Shown here piece by piece: positions 26,013-36,905 of a stretch of 64,000 nucleotides of DNA (its first letter is position 1; every line of letters starts with the position of its first letter). The notes beneath the pieces were generated by a model. It was not told the origin of the DNA, ran no database searches, and saw nothing but the letters and a program-made list of their open reading frames with translations. The position numbers were made by a program, and so were the translations under genes. Source of the stretch: Thermoplasmata archaeon (GTDB taxonomy: Archaea > Thermoplasmatota > E2 > JACPAO01 > JAHFTW01). Location of the stretch: the NCBI GenBank assembly GCA_034667725.1, contig JAXDQS010000010.1, forward strand, positions 1 to 64,000, in the 5' to 3' direction.

Positions 26013-26057
26013 GGCACGGCCACGGGCTTTTCAAGAGGCCCGGATTGGGCGCGCCTC

Positions 26058-26891
26058 GTGCAGGACCCCTGCCACGGCCTGTTGGAGCGGCCGCGGGCGA
26101 CCACCATCGAGGCCGTCGCGCGCGAGACCGGCCGGCACGTCACCATCGCCTTCCACGACCCGCTCTTGGCGGCCGCCCCCGCCGGCACGTTCTGCATGGT
26201 GTGGGTCCCAGGCGTGGACGAGGTCCCGATGGGCCTCGGCTACAACGACACGGCCGGCCGGGTCACGCTCACGGTCGAGGCCAAAGGCGACGCCACCAAG
26301 GCGCTCGCGGCCCTGGGCACCGGCGCCCGCATCGGCGTGCGCGGCCCCTACGGCCGCGGCTTCGCGCTGCCCAAGGCCGGACGCGTGTGCTTCGTCGGCG
26401 GCGGCACCGGCATCGCGCCGATGGCACGCGGCGCCCAGGCCGCCCTCGCCGCGGGCCTCGAGGTCACCGTCATCGCTGGCGCGCGCAGCCGCGACCTCCT
26501 GCTGCTGCATCCGGTCCTCGGCGGCTGGGCCGACGACGGCCGCATCGCGTACGAGCCCTGCACCGACGACGGCTCGTTCGCCTTCAAGGGCTTCACGACG
26601 CAACGCCTGCAGCAGTTGTTGGACGAGGACGAGTTCGCCTACGTCGCCGCCTGCGGCCCCGAGAAGATGATGGTCAAGGTCACCCAGGCGTGCGAGGCCG
26701 CCGGCGTCCGCGCCGAAGCCTCCCTGGAGCGGTACATGAAGTGCGCCACCGGCATCTGCGACGCCTGCACGGTCGGGCCCGGCCTCCGGCTGTGCGTGGA
26801 AGGCCCCGTGTTGTCCACGGCGCAACTCAAGACCGTGCAGGAGTACGGCGTGGGACACCGCGACGCGGCGGGCATCCTGCACCCCTGGTAG
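26058..26891 (+). CDS. pyrK: Dihydroorotate dehydrogenase electron transfer subunit
   Basis: MVWVPGVDE.P, RGPYG.GF, GGG.GIAP, CGPE.M, SLERYMKC..G.C..C, C.EGPV. Confidence 0.88.
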   Translation: MQDPCHGLLERPRATTIEAVARETGRHVTIAFHDPLLAAAPAGTFCMVWVPGVDEVPMGLGYNDTAGRVTLTVEAKGDATKALAALGTGARIGVRGPYGRGFALPKAGRVCFVGGGTGIAPMARGAQAALAAGLEVTVIAGARSRDLLLLHPVLGGWADDGRIAYEPCTDDGSFAFKGFTTQRLQQLLDEDEFAYVAACGPEKMMVKVTQACEAAGVRAEASLERYMKCATGICDACTVGPGLRLCVEGPVLSTAQLKTVQEYGVGHRDAAGILHPW

Positions 26892-26925
26892 GCTTATGGC
26901 GCAAGGGCGGCTCGCGCGGCCCAAC

Positions 26926-26967
26926 GGGCCTTTGGGGTAGCTTGGTATCCTTGGAGGTTTGGGACCT
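26926..26967 (+). pseudogene. 5' half of host tRNA-Pro(UGG), interrupted by the element (attL)
   Basis: GGGCCTT TG GGGT AGCTTGGTA TCCT T GGAGG TT TGG GA CCT; no T-arm follows. Confidence 0.9.
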
Positions 26968-26972
26968 AAGGG

Positions 26973-26986
26973 CTCTCTTTGGTGCA
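26973..26986 (+). repeat. Left 14-bp subterminal inverted repeat
   Basis: CTCTCTTTGGTGCA, the exact reverse complement of 36849-36862. Confidence 0.9.
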
Positions 26987-27010
26987 TATCCCCAAGGATG
27001 TGCGCCCACC

Positions 27011-28180
27011 ATGACCGAGCAGAACCCCGAACCGGCGACCTACGACAGCCAGCAGGCCCTCCTGGCCTCCCTGCGGCGCCAGACCGAGCGCCGTATCGCG
27101 GAGTTGCCGCCGGCTTGGCAGACCCGCATCCAGGCGGAGTGGCTCCGGCGGGAGAACAAGGGCCGCAAGCCCGGCACGAACCGCTCCTGGGCCCAGGCTT
27201 GGGCGACCCTGGCCCGGACCATCGGCAACCGCGACCCCGCCACTGTCAGCGCGGACGAGTGGGAGGTCATCATCCACGGGTGGCTCAAGGACCACAAGCG
27301 GGCCAGCGTGTCCGTGCGCTGCGTGAACATCAAGCAGACGCTCCCCCGCTTCTTCCCGGACAAGCGGCTCCCGGAGGACGTTGCCAAGGCCCTGATCGTG
27401 CCGGCTGGACGGCGGTGCCTGAGCCCCGACCGGGAACTGTCCAAGGACGACTTTCTGCTGCTTCTGGATCACGTAACGACCGAGGAAGCCAAACGGGACT
27501 CAGCCAGGGTCACGGCGGAGAAGGTGGCCCTCCTGTGGACGCTCTGGGACTCCTGGATGAGGGTGAACGAGATGCTGGCCTGCCAGCGAAGCGACCGCGT
27601 CCGGGCCGGCCCCAAGACGACCTTCGGGTTGCGCCCGGAGATGCCGTTCCTCAAGACCAACGACGCCGTCCGGCAGGTCCCCATGGTAGAGGCGACCGAG
27701 CCGCTGGCCGTTTGGGACGCCATGCACCCCGCCGGCTCCAACCTGGACGCCCCCATCTTTTGCAACTTCCGATGCAAGACCGGCCTGAGCCGGCTGTCAG
27801 ACTCTAACCTGGACAGATGGCTCAAGCAGGTTGGCGACGGGTCCGGGCTCCACAAGCGGCGCAAGAAGAAGCTCAGCGCCCACGACTTCAGGCACACCGG
27901 CAACACCCGCTCCGCCCGCAACAAGTGGGCACGGACGCTACGCGCCAAGAAAGCCGGCTGGAGCAAGACCAGTCGGATGCCCGAACACTACGAACACCTG
28001 GACGAGGCCGACATGCACCGCCAGTTGCTCCAAGACGCCGGCATCGACCTGATGGGCTTCAAGCAGCAGATGGACGCCGGCAACCTCGAAGGCGCCCTCG
28101 CGGACCTGTTGACGAAGCTGCTGGAGAAGCGCCGGAACGAGCCGGCGCCCATCGTTGCGAGTGGGCCTGTGCGGATTTGA
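27011..28180 (+). CDS. int: Tyrosine recombinase/integrase
   Basis: Catalytic set R (WMRVNEM), K (LKT), HxxR (HDFRH), W (AGW), Y (MPEHY). Confidence 0.9.
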   Translation: MTEQNPEPATYDSQQALLASLRRQTERRIAELPPAWQTRIQAEWLRRENKGRKPGTNRSWAQAWATLARTIGNRDPATVSADEWEVIIHGWLKDHKRASVSVRCVNIKQTLPRFFPDKRLPEDVAKALIVPAGRRCLSPDRELSKDDFLLLLDHVTTEEAKRDSARVTAEKVALLWTLWDSWMRVNEMLACQRSDRVRAGPKTTFGLRPEMPFLKTNDAVRQVPMVEATEPLAVWDAMHPAGSNLDAPIFCNFRCKTGLSRLSDSNLDRWLKQVGDGSGLHKRRKKKLSAHDFRHTGNTRSARNKWARTLRAKKAGWSKTSRMPEHYEHLDEADMHRQLLQDAGIDLMGFKQQMDAGNLEGALADLLTKLLEKRRNEPAPIVASGPVRI

Positions 28181-28234
28181 ACCGCAGCCTCTTGGTCCCA
28201 AACCAAGAAGTCTACCAAACTAGCCTACAGGCCC
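28162..28234 (-). tRNA. Element-borne tRNA-Pro(UGG)
   Basis: GGGCCTG TA GGCT AGTTTGGTA GACT T CTTGG TT TGG GA CCAAG AGGC TGCGG TTCAAAT CCGCA CAGGCCC A; 73 nt; one D-stem mismatch. Confidence 0.9.
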
Positions 28235-28461
28235 GCAGGCCCGGCGACTCGACCCGTGCTTATCTGCGCTTGCCCGGCCGGCGGGCCTGCTAGACCGCCA
28301 AAAATCCGCGCCGCGCTGTCGCGCGGCGCAAGGATGAGCGGTTGCGGAGCAACCGCTTGCATGACGCGCCGGGAATCTCTGGCAAAGGTCCAGGCGTTTT
28401 TACGGCTTCACTCCGGCGACCCTAAACGTTATGAGCGCGCCCGCAAGTGGTACGATTGAGG

Positions 28462-28564
28462 CGGCCGCGGAGGGATTCGAACCCTCACTCCGCACGGCGC
28501 TGCTCCCGAGGCCCTCTCTCAAAGTGCTCTCTCGGTGCGGCTCCTTCCATTAGATTACGCGGCC
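28462..28564 (-). ncRNA. tRNA-like RNA with expanded (39-nt) anticodon loop and no assignable anticodon
   Basis: Perfect acceptor GGCCGCG/CGCGGCC, T arm GAGGG-TTCGAAT-CCCTC, D-loop AATGGA, stem CGCAC/GTGCG. Confidence 0.75.
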
Positions 28565-28575
28565 ATGTTTGGGGT

Positions 28576-29439
28576 TTAGGGGAAGGGGGGAGAGTCATCG
28601 GCGGGCTTGGCAGCTTGCCGCTGCCGCCTTTCGATGGAACGTCGCAAAGTGTCAAGGAACTCCTTCAACTCGTCCACAGCTTCTACATCCGCCTTCACTC
28701 GAACCTGGAACAAGTCGGTGTTCATCACCCGCCACTCCCCACTCTCCAATGGGGGCGGTGAGGGAGCGAACGCGGGGGTCGGACCTGCGGGGGGCACGGG
28801 AGCCTGTTGCGTTGCGACCTGCGGTGGCACCGTCAATGCGGACGAAGTGGCCATGGGAACCGCGGCCGGAACAGGGCTGGCGGCTGGAAGCGTGACGCCG
28901 CGCTCATCCCGATTCAGGATTCCCGCATACGCGAGGTAGTCCAGAATGACTCGGAGCGCCGCGCCTTTCTTCGCCTTGTCAGTCTCGGCCGCCAAGGCAA
29001 ACTCGCCAATCAGGCGATCTTCTGACATGACCGGTTCAAGTCGAAGCTGCTCCATTGCCAGCTCTGCAAACCAAGTAGGCAGAAGCAACTCCTTCAGAAT
29101 CGGCTTTGCCCGAGCCTCATCCACCGACCGGGCGTTCACAAATCGAATGCACTCCGCGGTCGGCAAGTAAAGCCCACGATCCGTCGTCGTGAGGAGCCGA
29201 ATTTCCTTCAGGAATCGCACATTCATGGAAGCGGCCTGAGTTGGAATCCCCTCCCCCTCGAACTTCTCCGCAGCGACTGCCTCCTGGCCGTTTCGCGTAC
29301 GGAGAACAATCCGCTTGAGGAGGTCGAAGTGAAGCGCAAACGGGTTTCGCTCCGAAGGCAAGACGTACTTGGTGAAAACCCGAGTCCGGGGCGCCCTTGG
29401 CGCCTGTTGCGTGTCGGTAGTCGCGGGAAGCAATTCCAT
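28576..29439 (-). CDS. Hypothetical protein, probably with winged-helix DNA-binding domains
   Basis: RFLKEIRLL...GLY.PT and LRVILDYLAYAGIL segments; lower GC; stop 12 bp upstream of the tRNA-like RNA. Confidence 0.6.
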   Translation of the reverse strand: MELLPATTDTQQAPRAPRTRVFTKYVLPSERNPFALHFDLLKRIVLRTRNGQEAVAAEKFEGEGIPTQAASMNVRFLKEIRLLTTTDRGLYLPTAECIRFVNARSVDEARAKPILKELLLPTWFAELAMEQLRLEPVMSEDRLIGEFALAAETDKAKKGAALRVILDYLAYAGILNRDERGVTLPAASPVPAAVPMATSSALTVPPQVATQQAPVPPAGPTPAFAPSPPPLESGEWRVMNTDLFQVRVKADVEAVDELKEFLDTLRRSIERRQRQAAKPADDSPPFP

Positions 29440-29864
29440 GCTGGGCCTCAACCCCCCGTAGCACAAGGGGGTAAATTATCCAATCGCTGACGAGCATCCG
29501 TCGTCCAGGCCACCTGACGACTAGCCACATCAACTGGAAATCTCCTGTCAAATGCTTTCACTCGCCACGCACTCACGTTCTTTCGAGCATCAGAGCGAAT
29601 GGCCATCAAGAGAAGAAGGGTCGCAAAACTCGCCAATATTCGTCCTTTCCGGGGCATTGCATCCCCGAATCATGGTTTCACGGAAGCTGTTGAATGCTCA
29701 ACATCAAGACTCTCAGTCCAGGTCGCAGAGTTGCAAGTTTGCAACTCGTTTTCAGGTTAGCGGTTCAGCTGCGCACGAAGATCCATGGAGGGCCCAGGAC
29801 TTGTGCCCATCAAGGGCGCGCCTCTAATGCCACTCGCAAACGAGTATTGCCGGAAGCGTGGATG

Positions 29865-36826: not shown

Positions 36827-36848
36827 GCCCGACAAGGAAAACGAAGGT

Positions 36849-36862
36849 TGCACCAAAGAGAG
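36849..36862 (-). repeat. Right 14-bp subterminal inverted repeat
   Basis: TGCACCAAAGAGAG on the + strand. Confidence 0.9.
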
Positions 36863-36866
36863 AGTA

Positions 36867-36905
36867 TGGGACCTCTCGACGTCGGTTCGAATCCGACAAG
36901 GCCCA
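36867..36905 (+). pseudogene. 3' half of host tRNA-Pro(UGG) (attR)
   Basis: TGG GA CCTCT CGAC GTCGG TTCGAAT CCGAC AAGGCCC A; AAGGCCC pairs with GGGCCTT of the 5' half. Confidence 0.9.

What the first reader, a model, noticed from the sequence alone, without database searches (positions are those of the whole stretch)
28462..28564. Second element-encoded tRNA-like RNA with a 39-nt structured insert in place of the anticodon loop
Seen: perfect acceptor and T arms and a CGCAC/GTGCG stem enclose CGAGAGAGCACTTTGAGAGAGGGCCTCGGGAGCAGCGCC. The insert can fold as a CGAG/CTCG 4-bp helix, a 3-nt bulge AGA and a weak GAGA-tetraloop hairpin, half of a bulge-helix-bulge motif. Cutting at those sites would leave a 15-nt loop with no U33, so no anticodon can be assigned. 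Inference: possible roles are a tRNA mimic or decoy (e.g. for anticodon nucleases or splicing endonuclease), an RNase P/Z processing tag for the downstream tRNA-Pro transcript, or a tRNA scaffold displaying a guide loop.
Basis: partly seen in the sequence, partly recalled or inferred. Interest (0 to 1): 0.72.

Follow-up and report, generated by a model that had tools for sequence, protein, structure and literature searches.

The report
tRNA-shaped RNA tied to regulator gene
Inside a 10-kb integrated element of a Thermoplasmatota archaeon lies a conserved tRNA-shaped RNA gene whose anticodon loop is replaced by a structured 39-base module, always sitting right behind one family of DNA/RNA-binding protein genes; it cannot become a normal decoding tRNA and looks like a small, previously undescribed tRNA-like RNA family of archaeal mobile DNA.

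Summary
Window 28462-28564 (-) is a 103-nt tRNA-like gene: Rfam tRNA 40.1 bits, with acceptor, D and T arms, a 5-bp anticodon-type stem and a 39-nt insert.

The genome is an archaeal MAG (Thermoplasmatota). It has its own tRNA-Pro(CGG), so this RNA is extra. It lies inside a 9.9-kb element that splits the host tRNA-Pro(UGG).

I found three homologues, in one related MAG and two metagenome contigs. All stems covary, and the insert keeps the motifs CGAGAG and CUCGGGA.

In the window and in both metagenome contigs, the RNA starts 8-11 nt after, or 10 nt inside, the stop codon of one clade of an uncharacterised tandem winged-helix protein family (window 28576-29466 -).

No single excision gives a canonical anticodon loop. 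The bulge-helix-bulge motif is only half present and is lost in one homologue. The host splicing endonuclease is the strict alpha'2 type.

Best reading: a non-decoding tRNA-like RNA, co-transcribed with the regulator gene. It is probably released by RNase P/tRNase Z like an archaeal t-element, with the conserved insert as a binding platform. The function is inferred, not shown.

Only four members are known. Interest is moderate.

The parts
28462..28564 (-). tRNA-like RNA gene, 103 nt (RNA position p = 28565 - coordinate)
   Evidence: Rfam RF00005 40.1 bits. Own covariance model: 116.7 bits here and 87-123 bits in three homologues.
28558..28564 (-). acceptor stem 5' strand GGCCGCG; pairs with 28463-28469; discriminator G at 28462
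   Evidence: 7/7 pairs. Two positions change on both sides among the homologues.
28541..28555 (-). D arm (AUCU / AAUGGAA / GGAG) with G18 G19
   Evidence: UCUAAYGGA is conserved in all four sequences.
28535..28539 (-). anticodon-type stem, 5' strand CGCAC; pairs with GUGCG at 28491-28495
   Evidence: 5/5 pairs. A-U here is C-G in the homologues.
28496..28534 (-). 39-nt insert in place of the 7-nt anticodon loop
   Evidence: The homologues carry 41-43 nt at the same place.
28531..28534 (-). helix H, 5' strand CGAG; pairs with CUCG at 28507-28510; followed by the 3-nt bulge AGA at 28528-28530
   Evidence: CGAG/CUCG plus AGA or AGU is conserved in W, L082 and L083. In G016 the helix is shifted to GAGA/UCUC and there is no 3-nt bulge.
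28511..28527 (-). inner irregular hairpin GC-A-CUUU / GAG / AGAG-G-GC
   Evidence: Folding. All four have a C/U-rich 5' strand, a G-rich 3' strand and an A.G mismatch near the base (by eye).
28496..28510 (-). CUCGGGA, the most conserved motif (it reads like a tRNA-Pro CGG anticodon loop), followed by the 8-nt tail GCAGCGCC
   Evidence: CUCGGGA is invariant in the four sequences. The tail is C(C/U)GCUUC in the other three.
28470..28486 (-). T arm GAGGG-UUCGAAU-CCCUC
   Evidence: two pairs change on both sides.
28576..29466 (-). upstream gene (P0002, 296 aa as the longest ORF): tandem winged-helix protein with a small C-terminal beta-beta-alpha domain. Its stop codon is 11 nt before the RNA.
   Evidence: About 40 homologues, no Pfam family. 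AlphaFold model pLDDT 83; weak Foldseek matches to winged-helix proteins such as GntR, SelB WH domains and BpuJI/FokI recognition domains. The clade P0002/4/5/6 has 100/99 support.
28161..28234 (-). element-borne tRNA-Pro(UGG), 227 nt downstream of the tRNA-like RNA
   Evidence: ARAGORN and Rfam 58.6 bits. Not present next to the homologues.
27527..28180 (+). tyrosine integrase catalytic domain and C-terminus. Its end overlaps the 3' end of tRNA-Pro on the other strand.
   Evidence: PF00589, E 2.9e-5, 24.4 bits (below Pfam's 27.1-bit cut-off), residues 495-654 of ORF 26045-28180.
26926..26967 (+). attL: 5' part of the host tRNA-Pro(UGG), up to the core TGGGACCT
   Evidence: Read directly.
36868..36905 (+). 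attR: core TGGGACCT plus the 3' part of the host tRNA-Pro(UGG)
   Evidence: Read directly.

Best explanation
This is a real, selected, non-decoding tRNA-like RNA carried by archaeal mobile DNA.

Anatomy: it keeps everything the tRNA end-processing machinery reads. That means a 7-bp acceptor stem, a 5-bp T stem, the GUUCGAAUC T loop, G18 G19 in the D loop, and an anticodon-type stem. The anticodon loop is replaced by a conserved module of about 40 nt. The module consists of helix CGAG/CUCG, a 3-nt bulge, an irregular hairpin, and a 3' single strand of about 10 nt that starts GGGA.

Context: it sits 8-11 nt behind, or overlaps, the stop codon of a tandem winged-helix (regulator-like) gene. I saw no TATA-like box in the ~30-50 nt read upstream of it, and a pyrimidine-rich trailer follows.

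Proposed mechanism (inferred): gene and RNA are one transcript. RNase P cuts at the 5' end of the tRNA-like part and tRNase Z at the 3' end, as with archaeal t-elements. This sets the 3' end of the regulator mRNA and releases a stable RNA of about 105 nt. The conserved insert would then be a binding surface, most plausibly for the neighbouring winged-helix protein, or for the splicing endonuclease docking on the half bulge-helix-bulge.

Shown: the structure, its conservation, the gene linkage, and the impossibility of a canonical anticodon loop.

Inferred: co-transcription, processing, and what the released RNA does.
For: - Cloverleaf: Rfam tRNA 40.1 bits.
- Three homologues at 87-123 bits with my covariance model, while ordinary tRNAs score 50 bits or less.
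- Covariation in the acceptor, anticodon-type and T stems.
- The insert motifs CGAGAG and CUCGGGA are conserved.
- In W, L082 and L083 the RNA follows the stop of an orthologous gene: 11 nt and 8 nt after it, and overlapping it by 10 nt. These proteins form one clade with 100/99 support.
- In G016 the RNA also follows an ORF, by 22 nt.
- No duplicated half of the RNA occurs nearby, so it is not an active att site.
- The host already has tRNA-Pro(CGG) and a near-complete tRNA set.
- No single excision gives a canonical loop.
- The host EndA aligns along its length with the alpha'2 enzymes 1R0V and 2OHC. That type is reported not to cut non-canonical introns (PMC5829648, abstract seen).
Against: - There are only four sequences, so the structure inside the insert is not settled.
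- In L083 the annotated stop codon lies inside the RNA. RNase P cleavage there would leave a non-stop mRNA.
- A plain processing tag would not need a conserved 40-nt insert, D-loop identity or an anticodon-type stem, so the released RNA must do something more that I cannot name.
- More distant members of the protein family lack the RNA.
- The ORF upstream of the G016 copy is not demonstrably homologous (hhalign probability 0.7%).
- There are no expression data.
Confidence: 0.45

Rival explanations
1. It is a true intron-bearing tRNA of the element. The splicing endonuclease cuts at the half bulge-helix-bulge (after CGAG-AG), and a second cut near the 3' stem gives a tRNA with an unusual loop (CCGAGAG or CGAGAGC) that still decodes.
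For: - Helix H (4 bp), a 3-nt bulge and an inner helix sit in the right geometry in W, L082 and L083.
- Cutting there ends exon 1 with CCGAGAG, which is 7 nt with A at position 37.
- The G016 variant CCAAGAG keeps a Leu-box anticodon (AAG against GAG).
- A second half motif can be drawn in three sequences by eye: tail CCGC/CUGC pairing with GCGG/GCAG, followed by UUC.
Against: - Position 33 is C or G in every product, never U.
- The body is class I, whereas Leu and Ser tRNAs are class II.
- The 3' bulge is 10-11 nt, not 3.
- G016 has no 3-nt bulge.
- The two half motifs exclude each other.
- The host EndA is alpha'2-like, the strict type (PMC5829648).
- The host already has tRNA-Leu(GAG).
- The discriminator differs between copies (G in W, U in the others).
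Confidence: 0.13
2. It is a tRNA mimic or decoy. The tRNA body carries a Pro(CGG)-like loop sequence, CUCGGGA(CC), to soak up or sense a tRNA-directed enzyme. Candidates are an anticodon nuclease of a defence system, ProRS or Trm5.
For: - CUCGGGA is invariant.
- UCGGGACC in L082 and L083 equals the anticodon loop plus the start of the 3' stem of the host tRNA-Pro(CGG).
- The neighbours look like defence-island or mobile-element genes: NERD nuclease, HerA-like ATPase, XPD-like helicase, methyltransferase.
Against: - In the consensus fold, CUC is paired with GAG and no conserved stem closes CUCGGGA as a 7-nt loop.
- The match to tRNA-Pro is 7-8 nt and was noticed after the fact.
- No tRNA-targeting nuclease was identified in these loci.
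Confidence: 0.15
3. It is the RNA partner of the neighbouring winged-helix protein. It would form a ribonucleoprotein or act as an RNA regulator or antitoxin. The tRNA body would serve only as a stable scaffold, and the insert would be the protein's binding site.
For: - Gene-RNA adjacency is strict within one protein clade.
- The model is a tandem winged helix, a fold that binds RNA hairpins in SelB (weak matches: E 0.02, probability 0.97).
- In other loci, members of the family sit beside M78 peptidase genes, like HTH-protease regulator pairs. That comparison rests on my own knowledge of ImmR/ImmA and CapH/CapP.
Against: - Most family members have no such RNA.
- Winged helices mostly bind DNA.
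- The G016 copy has a different upstream protein.
- There is no direct evidence of binding.
Confidence: 0.17
4. It is a dead tRNA, or a relic of an old attachment site, disrupted by a small insertion and simply carried along.
For: - The element family integrates in tRNA genes.
- Another clade of the same protein family has a tRNA gene just downstream (L133). So tRNA genes next to this gene could reflect att-site history.
- The RNA is rare: absent from 36 of the 38 genomes of the order.
Against: - Four copies at only ~70-85% identity keep every helix, with compensatory changes, and keep motifs within the insert.
- There is no partial duplicate that would mark an att site.
- In W it lies inside the element, away from the att sites now in use.
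Confidence: 0.08

Closest known systems
[quoted passage not shown] 2008/2012 cited there)
   Same: A tRNA-shaped module joined to another RNA in one transcript. It has the acceptor/T-arm minihelix that both enzymes need. The setting is archaeal.
   Different: Here a full cloverleaf is kept and a conserved ~40-nt module is added. The RNA follows a protein gene on mobile DNA rather than an rRNA. Processing was not tested.
Archaeal intron-containing pre-tRNAs with bulge-helix-bulge motifs (canonical 37/38 and non-canonical introns; PMC4090602, PMC5829648)
   Same: An insert of 30-40 nt in the anticodon region. A 4-bp helix followed by a 3-nt bulge and an inner helix.
   Different: The second bulge is 10-11 nt. 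One homologue lacks the first bulge. No excision restores a U33 loop. The host endonuclease is the strict alpha'2 type.
MALAT1 mascRNA / MEN-beta tRNA-like 3' elements (Rfam RF01684)
   Same: A tRNA-like structure at the 3' end of a longer transcript, which in that system is cut by RNase P to make the upstream RNA's 3' end and a small RNA.
   Different: That system is eukaryotic. The Rfam score here is 20.7 bits against a cut-off of 42.5. mascRNA has a reduced anticodon arm, not an expanded one.
tRNA genes carried by viruses and integrative elements
   Same: It is encoded inside an integrated element, next to an integrase and a genuine element-borne tRNA-Pro(UGG).
   Different: Those are decoders with normal anticodon loops. 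This one has none.

Membership tests
Canonical decoding tRNA | Cloverleaf with a 7-bp acceptor stem, D arm with G18 G19, and T arm with a GTTCRA loop | tested here: met
   Rfam RF00005 40.1 bits, above the gathering score of 29. Helices are kept in four sequences.
Canonical decoding tRNA | 7-nt anticodon loop with U33 and purine 37, directly or after removal of one intron | tested here: not met
   The loop is 39 nt. All single excisions of 8-61 nt were tried on four sequences. The only normal-size products have loops CCGAGAG, CGAGAGA or (C/U)GCUUCG, without U33. CUCGGGA cannot be closed by a conserved stem.
Archaeal BHB-intron pre-tRNA | hBHBh' motif: two 3-nt bulges on opposite strands, 4 bp apart, flanked by helices | tested here: not met
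   Only H (CGAG/CUCG), the 5' bulge AGA/AGU and the inner helix are present. On the 3' side 10-11 nt are unpaired. G016 has GAGA/UCUC with a 1x1 mismatch instead of the bulge.
Archaeal BHB-intron pre-tRNA | Host endonuclease able to cut relaxed motifs ((alpha-beta)2 or epsilon2 type) | tested here: not met
   There is one EndA ORF with two repeats. It aligns over residues 57-353 with the alpha'2 enzymes 2OHC and 1R0V, and only over the catalytic domain with epsilon2 4FZ2. The specificity of this particular enzyme was not measured.
t-element / tRNA-like processing signal | Acceptor plus T-arm minihelix and elbow recognised by RNase P and tRNase Z | tested here: met
   A 12-bp coaxial acceptor/T stack, the GGUUCGAAUCC T loop and G18 G19 are conserved.
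t-element / tRNA-like processing signal | Lies in the same transcript as the RNA whose end it defines | tested here: inconclusive
   Same strand. The spacing from the stop codon is 11 nt, 8 nt and -10 nt in the three orthologous loci. I saw no TATA-like box in the ~30-50 nt read upstream. There are no transcript data.
t-element / tRNA-like processing signal | Cleavage by RNase P and tRNase Z | not testable with these tools
   Needs enzyme assays or end-mapping.
mascRNA-menRNA (RF01684) | Score at or above the Rfam gathering threshold | tested here: not met
   20.7 bits against 42.5.

The most novel reading that the evidence does not exclude
A two-part module of archaeal mobile elements and defence islands. 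A tandem winged-helix regulator gene is transcriptionally fused to a tRNA-shaped RNA. The RNA's expanded anticodon arm shows a half splice-site and a Pro-anticodon-like sequence. The RNA would work as a decoy, sensor or antitoxin-like partner in conflicts that involve tRNA-directed enzymes. That would make it a new class of functional tRNA mimic in archaea.
Probability: 0.2. Interest if true: 0.8.

Novelty: new variant of a known kind. Interest (0 to 1): 0.55.

Why it matters
tRNA-shaped RNAs that are not decoders are known as processing signals, viral 3' ends and enzyme mimics. In archaea only a few t-elements have been described.

This one is a small family with a conserved extra module, a fixed protein-gene partner and a mobile-element home. 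If the RNA is released and bound by a protein, it would be a new way for archaeal mobile DNA to use the tRNA maturation machinery. It would also be a ready-made natural scaffold for expressing small RNAs in archaea.

The case also shows that standard tRNA finders either miss such genes or label them with meaningless anticodons.

Tried and rejected
- **Core host tRNA with an intron.** Rejected. It is missing from 36 of the 38 genomes of the order. The host has its own tRNA-Pro(CGG).
- **Bacterial origin or group I intron.** Rejected. The genome is archaeal: class I tRNA-Tyr, Arg-GCG, no tmRNA, EndA present, and a relative titled Thermoplasmatota. The insert is far too short for a group I intron.
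- **Class II reading (insert as a long variable arm).** No anticodon arm can be drawn. ARAGORN's lenient 'Pro(cgg)' products of 80-86 nt use non-homologous excisions and mismatched stems.
- **K-turn.** The tandem G.A positions are not present in any orientation (by eye).
- **Guide RNA.** The single-stranded part has no consistent complementary target in 5-8 kb around the four loci.
- **Active att site.** There is no duplicated half.
- **Wider searches for homologues that found nothing:**
  - three exact-pattern scans of viral contigs and two of metagenome contigs gave only ordinary tRNAs or chance hits;
  - the genome-collection scan found only G016;
  - 151 class genomes searched with the covariance model;
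  - 401 phylum genomes searched with the motif;
  - plasmids;
  - viral contigs searched with the protein family.
- **Homology of the G016 upstream ORF to the P0002 family.** Not demonstrated.
- **ARAGORN's intron-mode 'tRNA-Trp' at C1:236751.** This is a false positive.

Full report
**What is there.** On the minus strand, 28564 to 28462 reads as a cloverleaf:
- acceptor GGCCGCG/CGCGGCC with discriminator G;
- D arm AUCU-AAUGGAA-GGAG;
- a 5-bp stem CGCAC/GUGCG where the anticodon stem belongs;
- variable region GAGU;
- T arm GAGGG-UUCGAAU-CCCUC.

Between the two strands of the anticodon-type stem lie 39 nt instead of 7. Rfam's tRNA model scores the gene 40.1 bits (gathering score 29) and places the 39 nt in the anticodon loop. 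Default ARAGORN and the filtered whole-window Rfam run miss it.

**Whose genome.** The window is the first 64 kb of a 487-kb contig of a 2.32-Mb MAG with about 70% G+C. The genome is archaeal:
- tRNA-Tyr is 75 nt (class I), Arg uses GCG, and there is no tmRNA;
- a tRNA splicing endonuclease is present;
- the related genome G016 is titled 'Thermoplasmatota archaeon'.

The host has a near-complete set of ordinary tRNAs. This includes a normal tRNA-Pro(CGG) at C3:483069-483142 and tRNA-Leu(GAG). The tRNA-like gene is therefore extra.

**Where it sits.** 26926-26967 is the 5' part of a tRNA-Pro(UGG), and 36868-36905 is its 3' part. They share the core TGGGACCT, and inverted repeats lie just inside. 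So a 9.9-kb element splits the host gene. From the left end it carries:
- a tyrosine integrase (PF00589, E 2.9e-5, 24.4 bits, below Pfam's 27.1-bit cut-off);
- on the other strand, its own tRNA-Pro(UGG) at 28161-28234;
- the tRNA-like gene;
- an ORF at 28576-29466 (P0002), whose stop codon is 11 nt before the tRNA-like RNA.

G+C drops to 61% in this part of the window.

**Relatives of the RNA.** A DNA search of 40 relatives gave one full-length match, in G016, a different genus of the same family. That copy scores 41.1 bits with Rfam tRNA and has a 42-43-nt insert. A motif search found it in no other genome of the order, so it is in 2 of 38.

I built covariance models.
- In 151 genomes of the class, only W (this window's copy) and G016 score above 115 bits. 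Ordinary tRNAs, best of all tRNA-Arg(UCU), score 50 bits or less.
- Exact-pattern scans of viral, metagenome and genome collections, a motif scan of 401 genomes of the phylum, and a plasmid search added nothing.

The breakthrough came from the upstream protein. P0002 has about 40 homologues at 39-57% identity in metagenomes. The two closest ones for which DNA was available are L082 and L083. Each carries the RNA right after the gene, at 87 bits: it starts 8 nt after the stop codon in L082 and overlaps the last 10 nt of the gene in L083. The family therefore has four known members.

**What is conserved.** All four keep the acceptor, D, anticodon-type and T helices.
- 98.9% of cells are paired and five pairs change on both sides.
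- Slid controls give 40-56% paired. The caveat is that there are few sequences and the alignment was fitted to the model.

Within the insert, the conserved features are:
- CGAGAG at the 5' end (CAAGAG in G016);
- an irregular hairpin with a C/U-rich 5' strand, a G-rich 3' strand and an A.G mismatch near its base;
- the invariant CUCGGGA;
- a 7-8-nt tail, C(C/U)GCUUC in three copies and GCAGCGCC in W.

CGAG pairs with CUCG and is followed by a 3-nt bulge (AGA or AGU) in three of the four. In G016 the helix is shifted to GAGA/UCUC and the bulge is lost.

Other points:
- The 3' trailers are pyrimidine-rich (UCCUACUYYC in three copies).
- I saw no TATA-like box in the ~30-50 nt read upstream of any copy.
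- CCA is not encoded.
- The discriminator is U in three copies and G in W.

**Can it become a tRNA?** For each of the four sequences I removed every stretch of 8-61 nt between the D and T arms and ran ARAGORN on the products.
- Products of normal size have loops CCGAGAG, CGAGAGA or (C/U)GCUUCG. None has U33.
- CUCGGGA is the only conserved U33-purine-37 heptamer and reads as Pro CGG. It appears only in 80-86-nt products that use non-homologous excisions and mismatched stems.
- Making CUCGGGA the loop of the conserved stem would need two excisions, one of only 7-8 nt.

The bulge-helix-bulge motif is half present. The 5' bulge and the 4-bp helix have the right geometry, but 10-11 nt are unpaired where the 3-nt 3' bulge should be.

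The host endonuclease is a single two-repeat polypeptide. It aligns along its length with the alpha'2 enzymes of Archaeoglobus and Thermoplasma (1R0V, 2OHC) and only in the catalytic domain with the epsilon2 enzyme. [quoted passage not shown] I therefore judge a decoding role unlikely (about 0.13).

**The partner gene.** P0002 has no Pfam family.
- An AlphaFold model built from a 40-sequence alignment (pLDDT 83) shows two winged-helix units, a disordered linker and a small beta-beta-alpha domain.
- Foldseek matches are weak (E of 0.01 or more) and are all to winged-helix nucleic-acid binders, among them the SECIS-binding domains of SelB.
- The proteins with the RNA (P0002, P0005, P0006) form one clade with P0004, with 100/99 support. 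The gene table for P0004's contig shows a 150-nt uncalled gap after the gene, but no DNA could be fetched.
- More distant members lack the RNA. Several of these sit in front of an M78 peptidase gene in what look like defence islands.
- In another clade, P0045 is followed after 28 nt by a strong tRNA (63.8 bits) with anticodon UAU and a long variable arm.
- The ORF upstream of the G016 copy has a similar layout but no demonstrable homology.
- The neighbours of the RNA-bearing loci differ: NERD nuclease, HerA-like ATPase, XPD-like helicase, methyltransferase. The gene plus RNA therefore behaves as a unit of its own.

**How it most likely works.**
- Shown: a selected tRNA-shaped RNA with an expanded, conserved anticodon arm, fixed to the 3' end of one regulator-like gene on mobile DNA.
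- Inferred: one transcript, cut by RNase P and tRNase Z as for the t-elements of Haloferax (PMC4326828). This would define the mRNA 3' end and release a stable RNA.

The conservation of the insert says that the released RNA has a role of its own. My ranking of possible roles is:
1. a binding platform for the winged-helix protein;
2. a platform for the endonuclease;
3. a mimic of tRNA-Pro(CGG) for a tRNA-directed enzyme.

Two facts fit the model poorly: the stop codon overlaps the RNA in L083, and the RNA is absent from most of the protein family.

**Comparison and novelty.** It works most like a t-element or a mascRNA-type 3' module, but it is not a member of RF01684 (20.7 bits against a 42.5 cut-off). 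It fails the tests for a canonical tRNA and for a BHB-intron pre-tRNA. I found no description of such an RNA in three literature searches. I class it as a new variant of a known kind (tRNA-like RNAs). It has moderate interest and rests on a thin data base of four sequences.

Noticed in passing
L133:1622-1708 (+), Logan SRR21753543 contig: A strong tRNA (Rfam 63.8 bits) with anticodon UAU, a class-II-type long variable arm (about 20 nt: 5-bp stem, 4-nt loop) and discriminator G. It lies 28 nt after a P0002-family gene of another clade (P0045). A long-arm tRNA reading AUA is unusual and could be charged by SerRS or LeuRS.
   Followed up: partly
window 26968-26990 and 36848-36867: Inverted repeats CTCTCTTTGGTGCA / TGCACCAAAGAGAG lie just inside the two att cores of the 9.9-kb element. 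They are probably integrase binding sites.
   Followed up: no
L081:4795-10597 and L084:3259-9149: RNA-less members of the P0002 family sit in a conserved block: dCTP-deaminase-like (DCD), P0002-like, M78 peptidase, AAA/adenylosuccinate-synthetase-like, DUF7002. This looks like a defence system with an HTH-protease regulator pair.
   Followed up: no
window 28400-28430 (-) and L082:3665-3680: The motif CTCATAACGYTT recurs about 35-50 nt downstream of the tRNA-like RNA in W and L082. Its meaning is unknown; it could be a promoter or a terminator element.
   Followed up: no
G000 whole genome: No SSU rRNA was found. Among the tRNAs found by ARAGORN and the Rfam tRNA search, I saw no credible tRNA-Trp and no tRNA-Ala(UGC). 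ARAGORN in intron mode gives dozens of false intron-bearing tRNAs in this 70% G+C genome.
   Followed up: partly
L028:8700-11200 (G016): The G016 copy lies in a 2.5-kb island of lower G+C (57-63%) between acyl-CoA dehydrogenase and fumarylacetoacetase genes. No integrase was seen there, so it is probably an element remnant.
   Followed up: partly
window 28290-28365 (-): Two G+C-rich hairpins (GCGCCGCGCGACAGCGCGGCGCG and AGCGGTTGCTCCGCAACCGCT) lie between the tRNA-like RNA and the element's tRNA-Pro.
   Followed up: no
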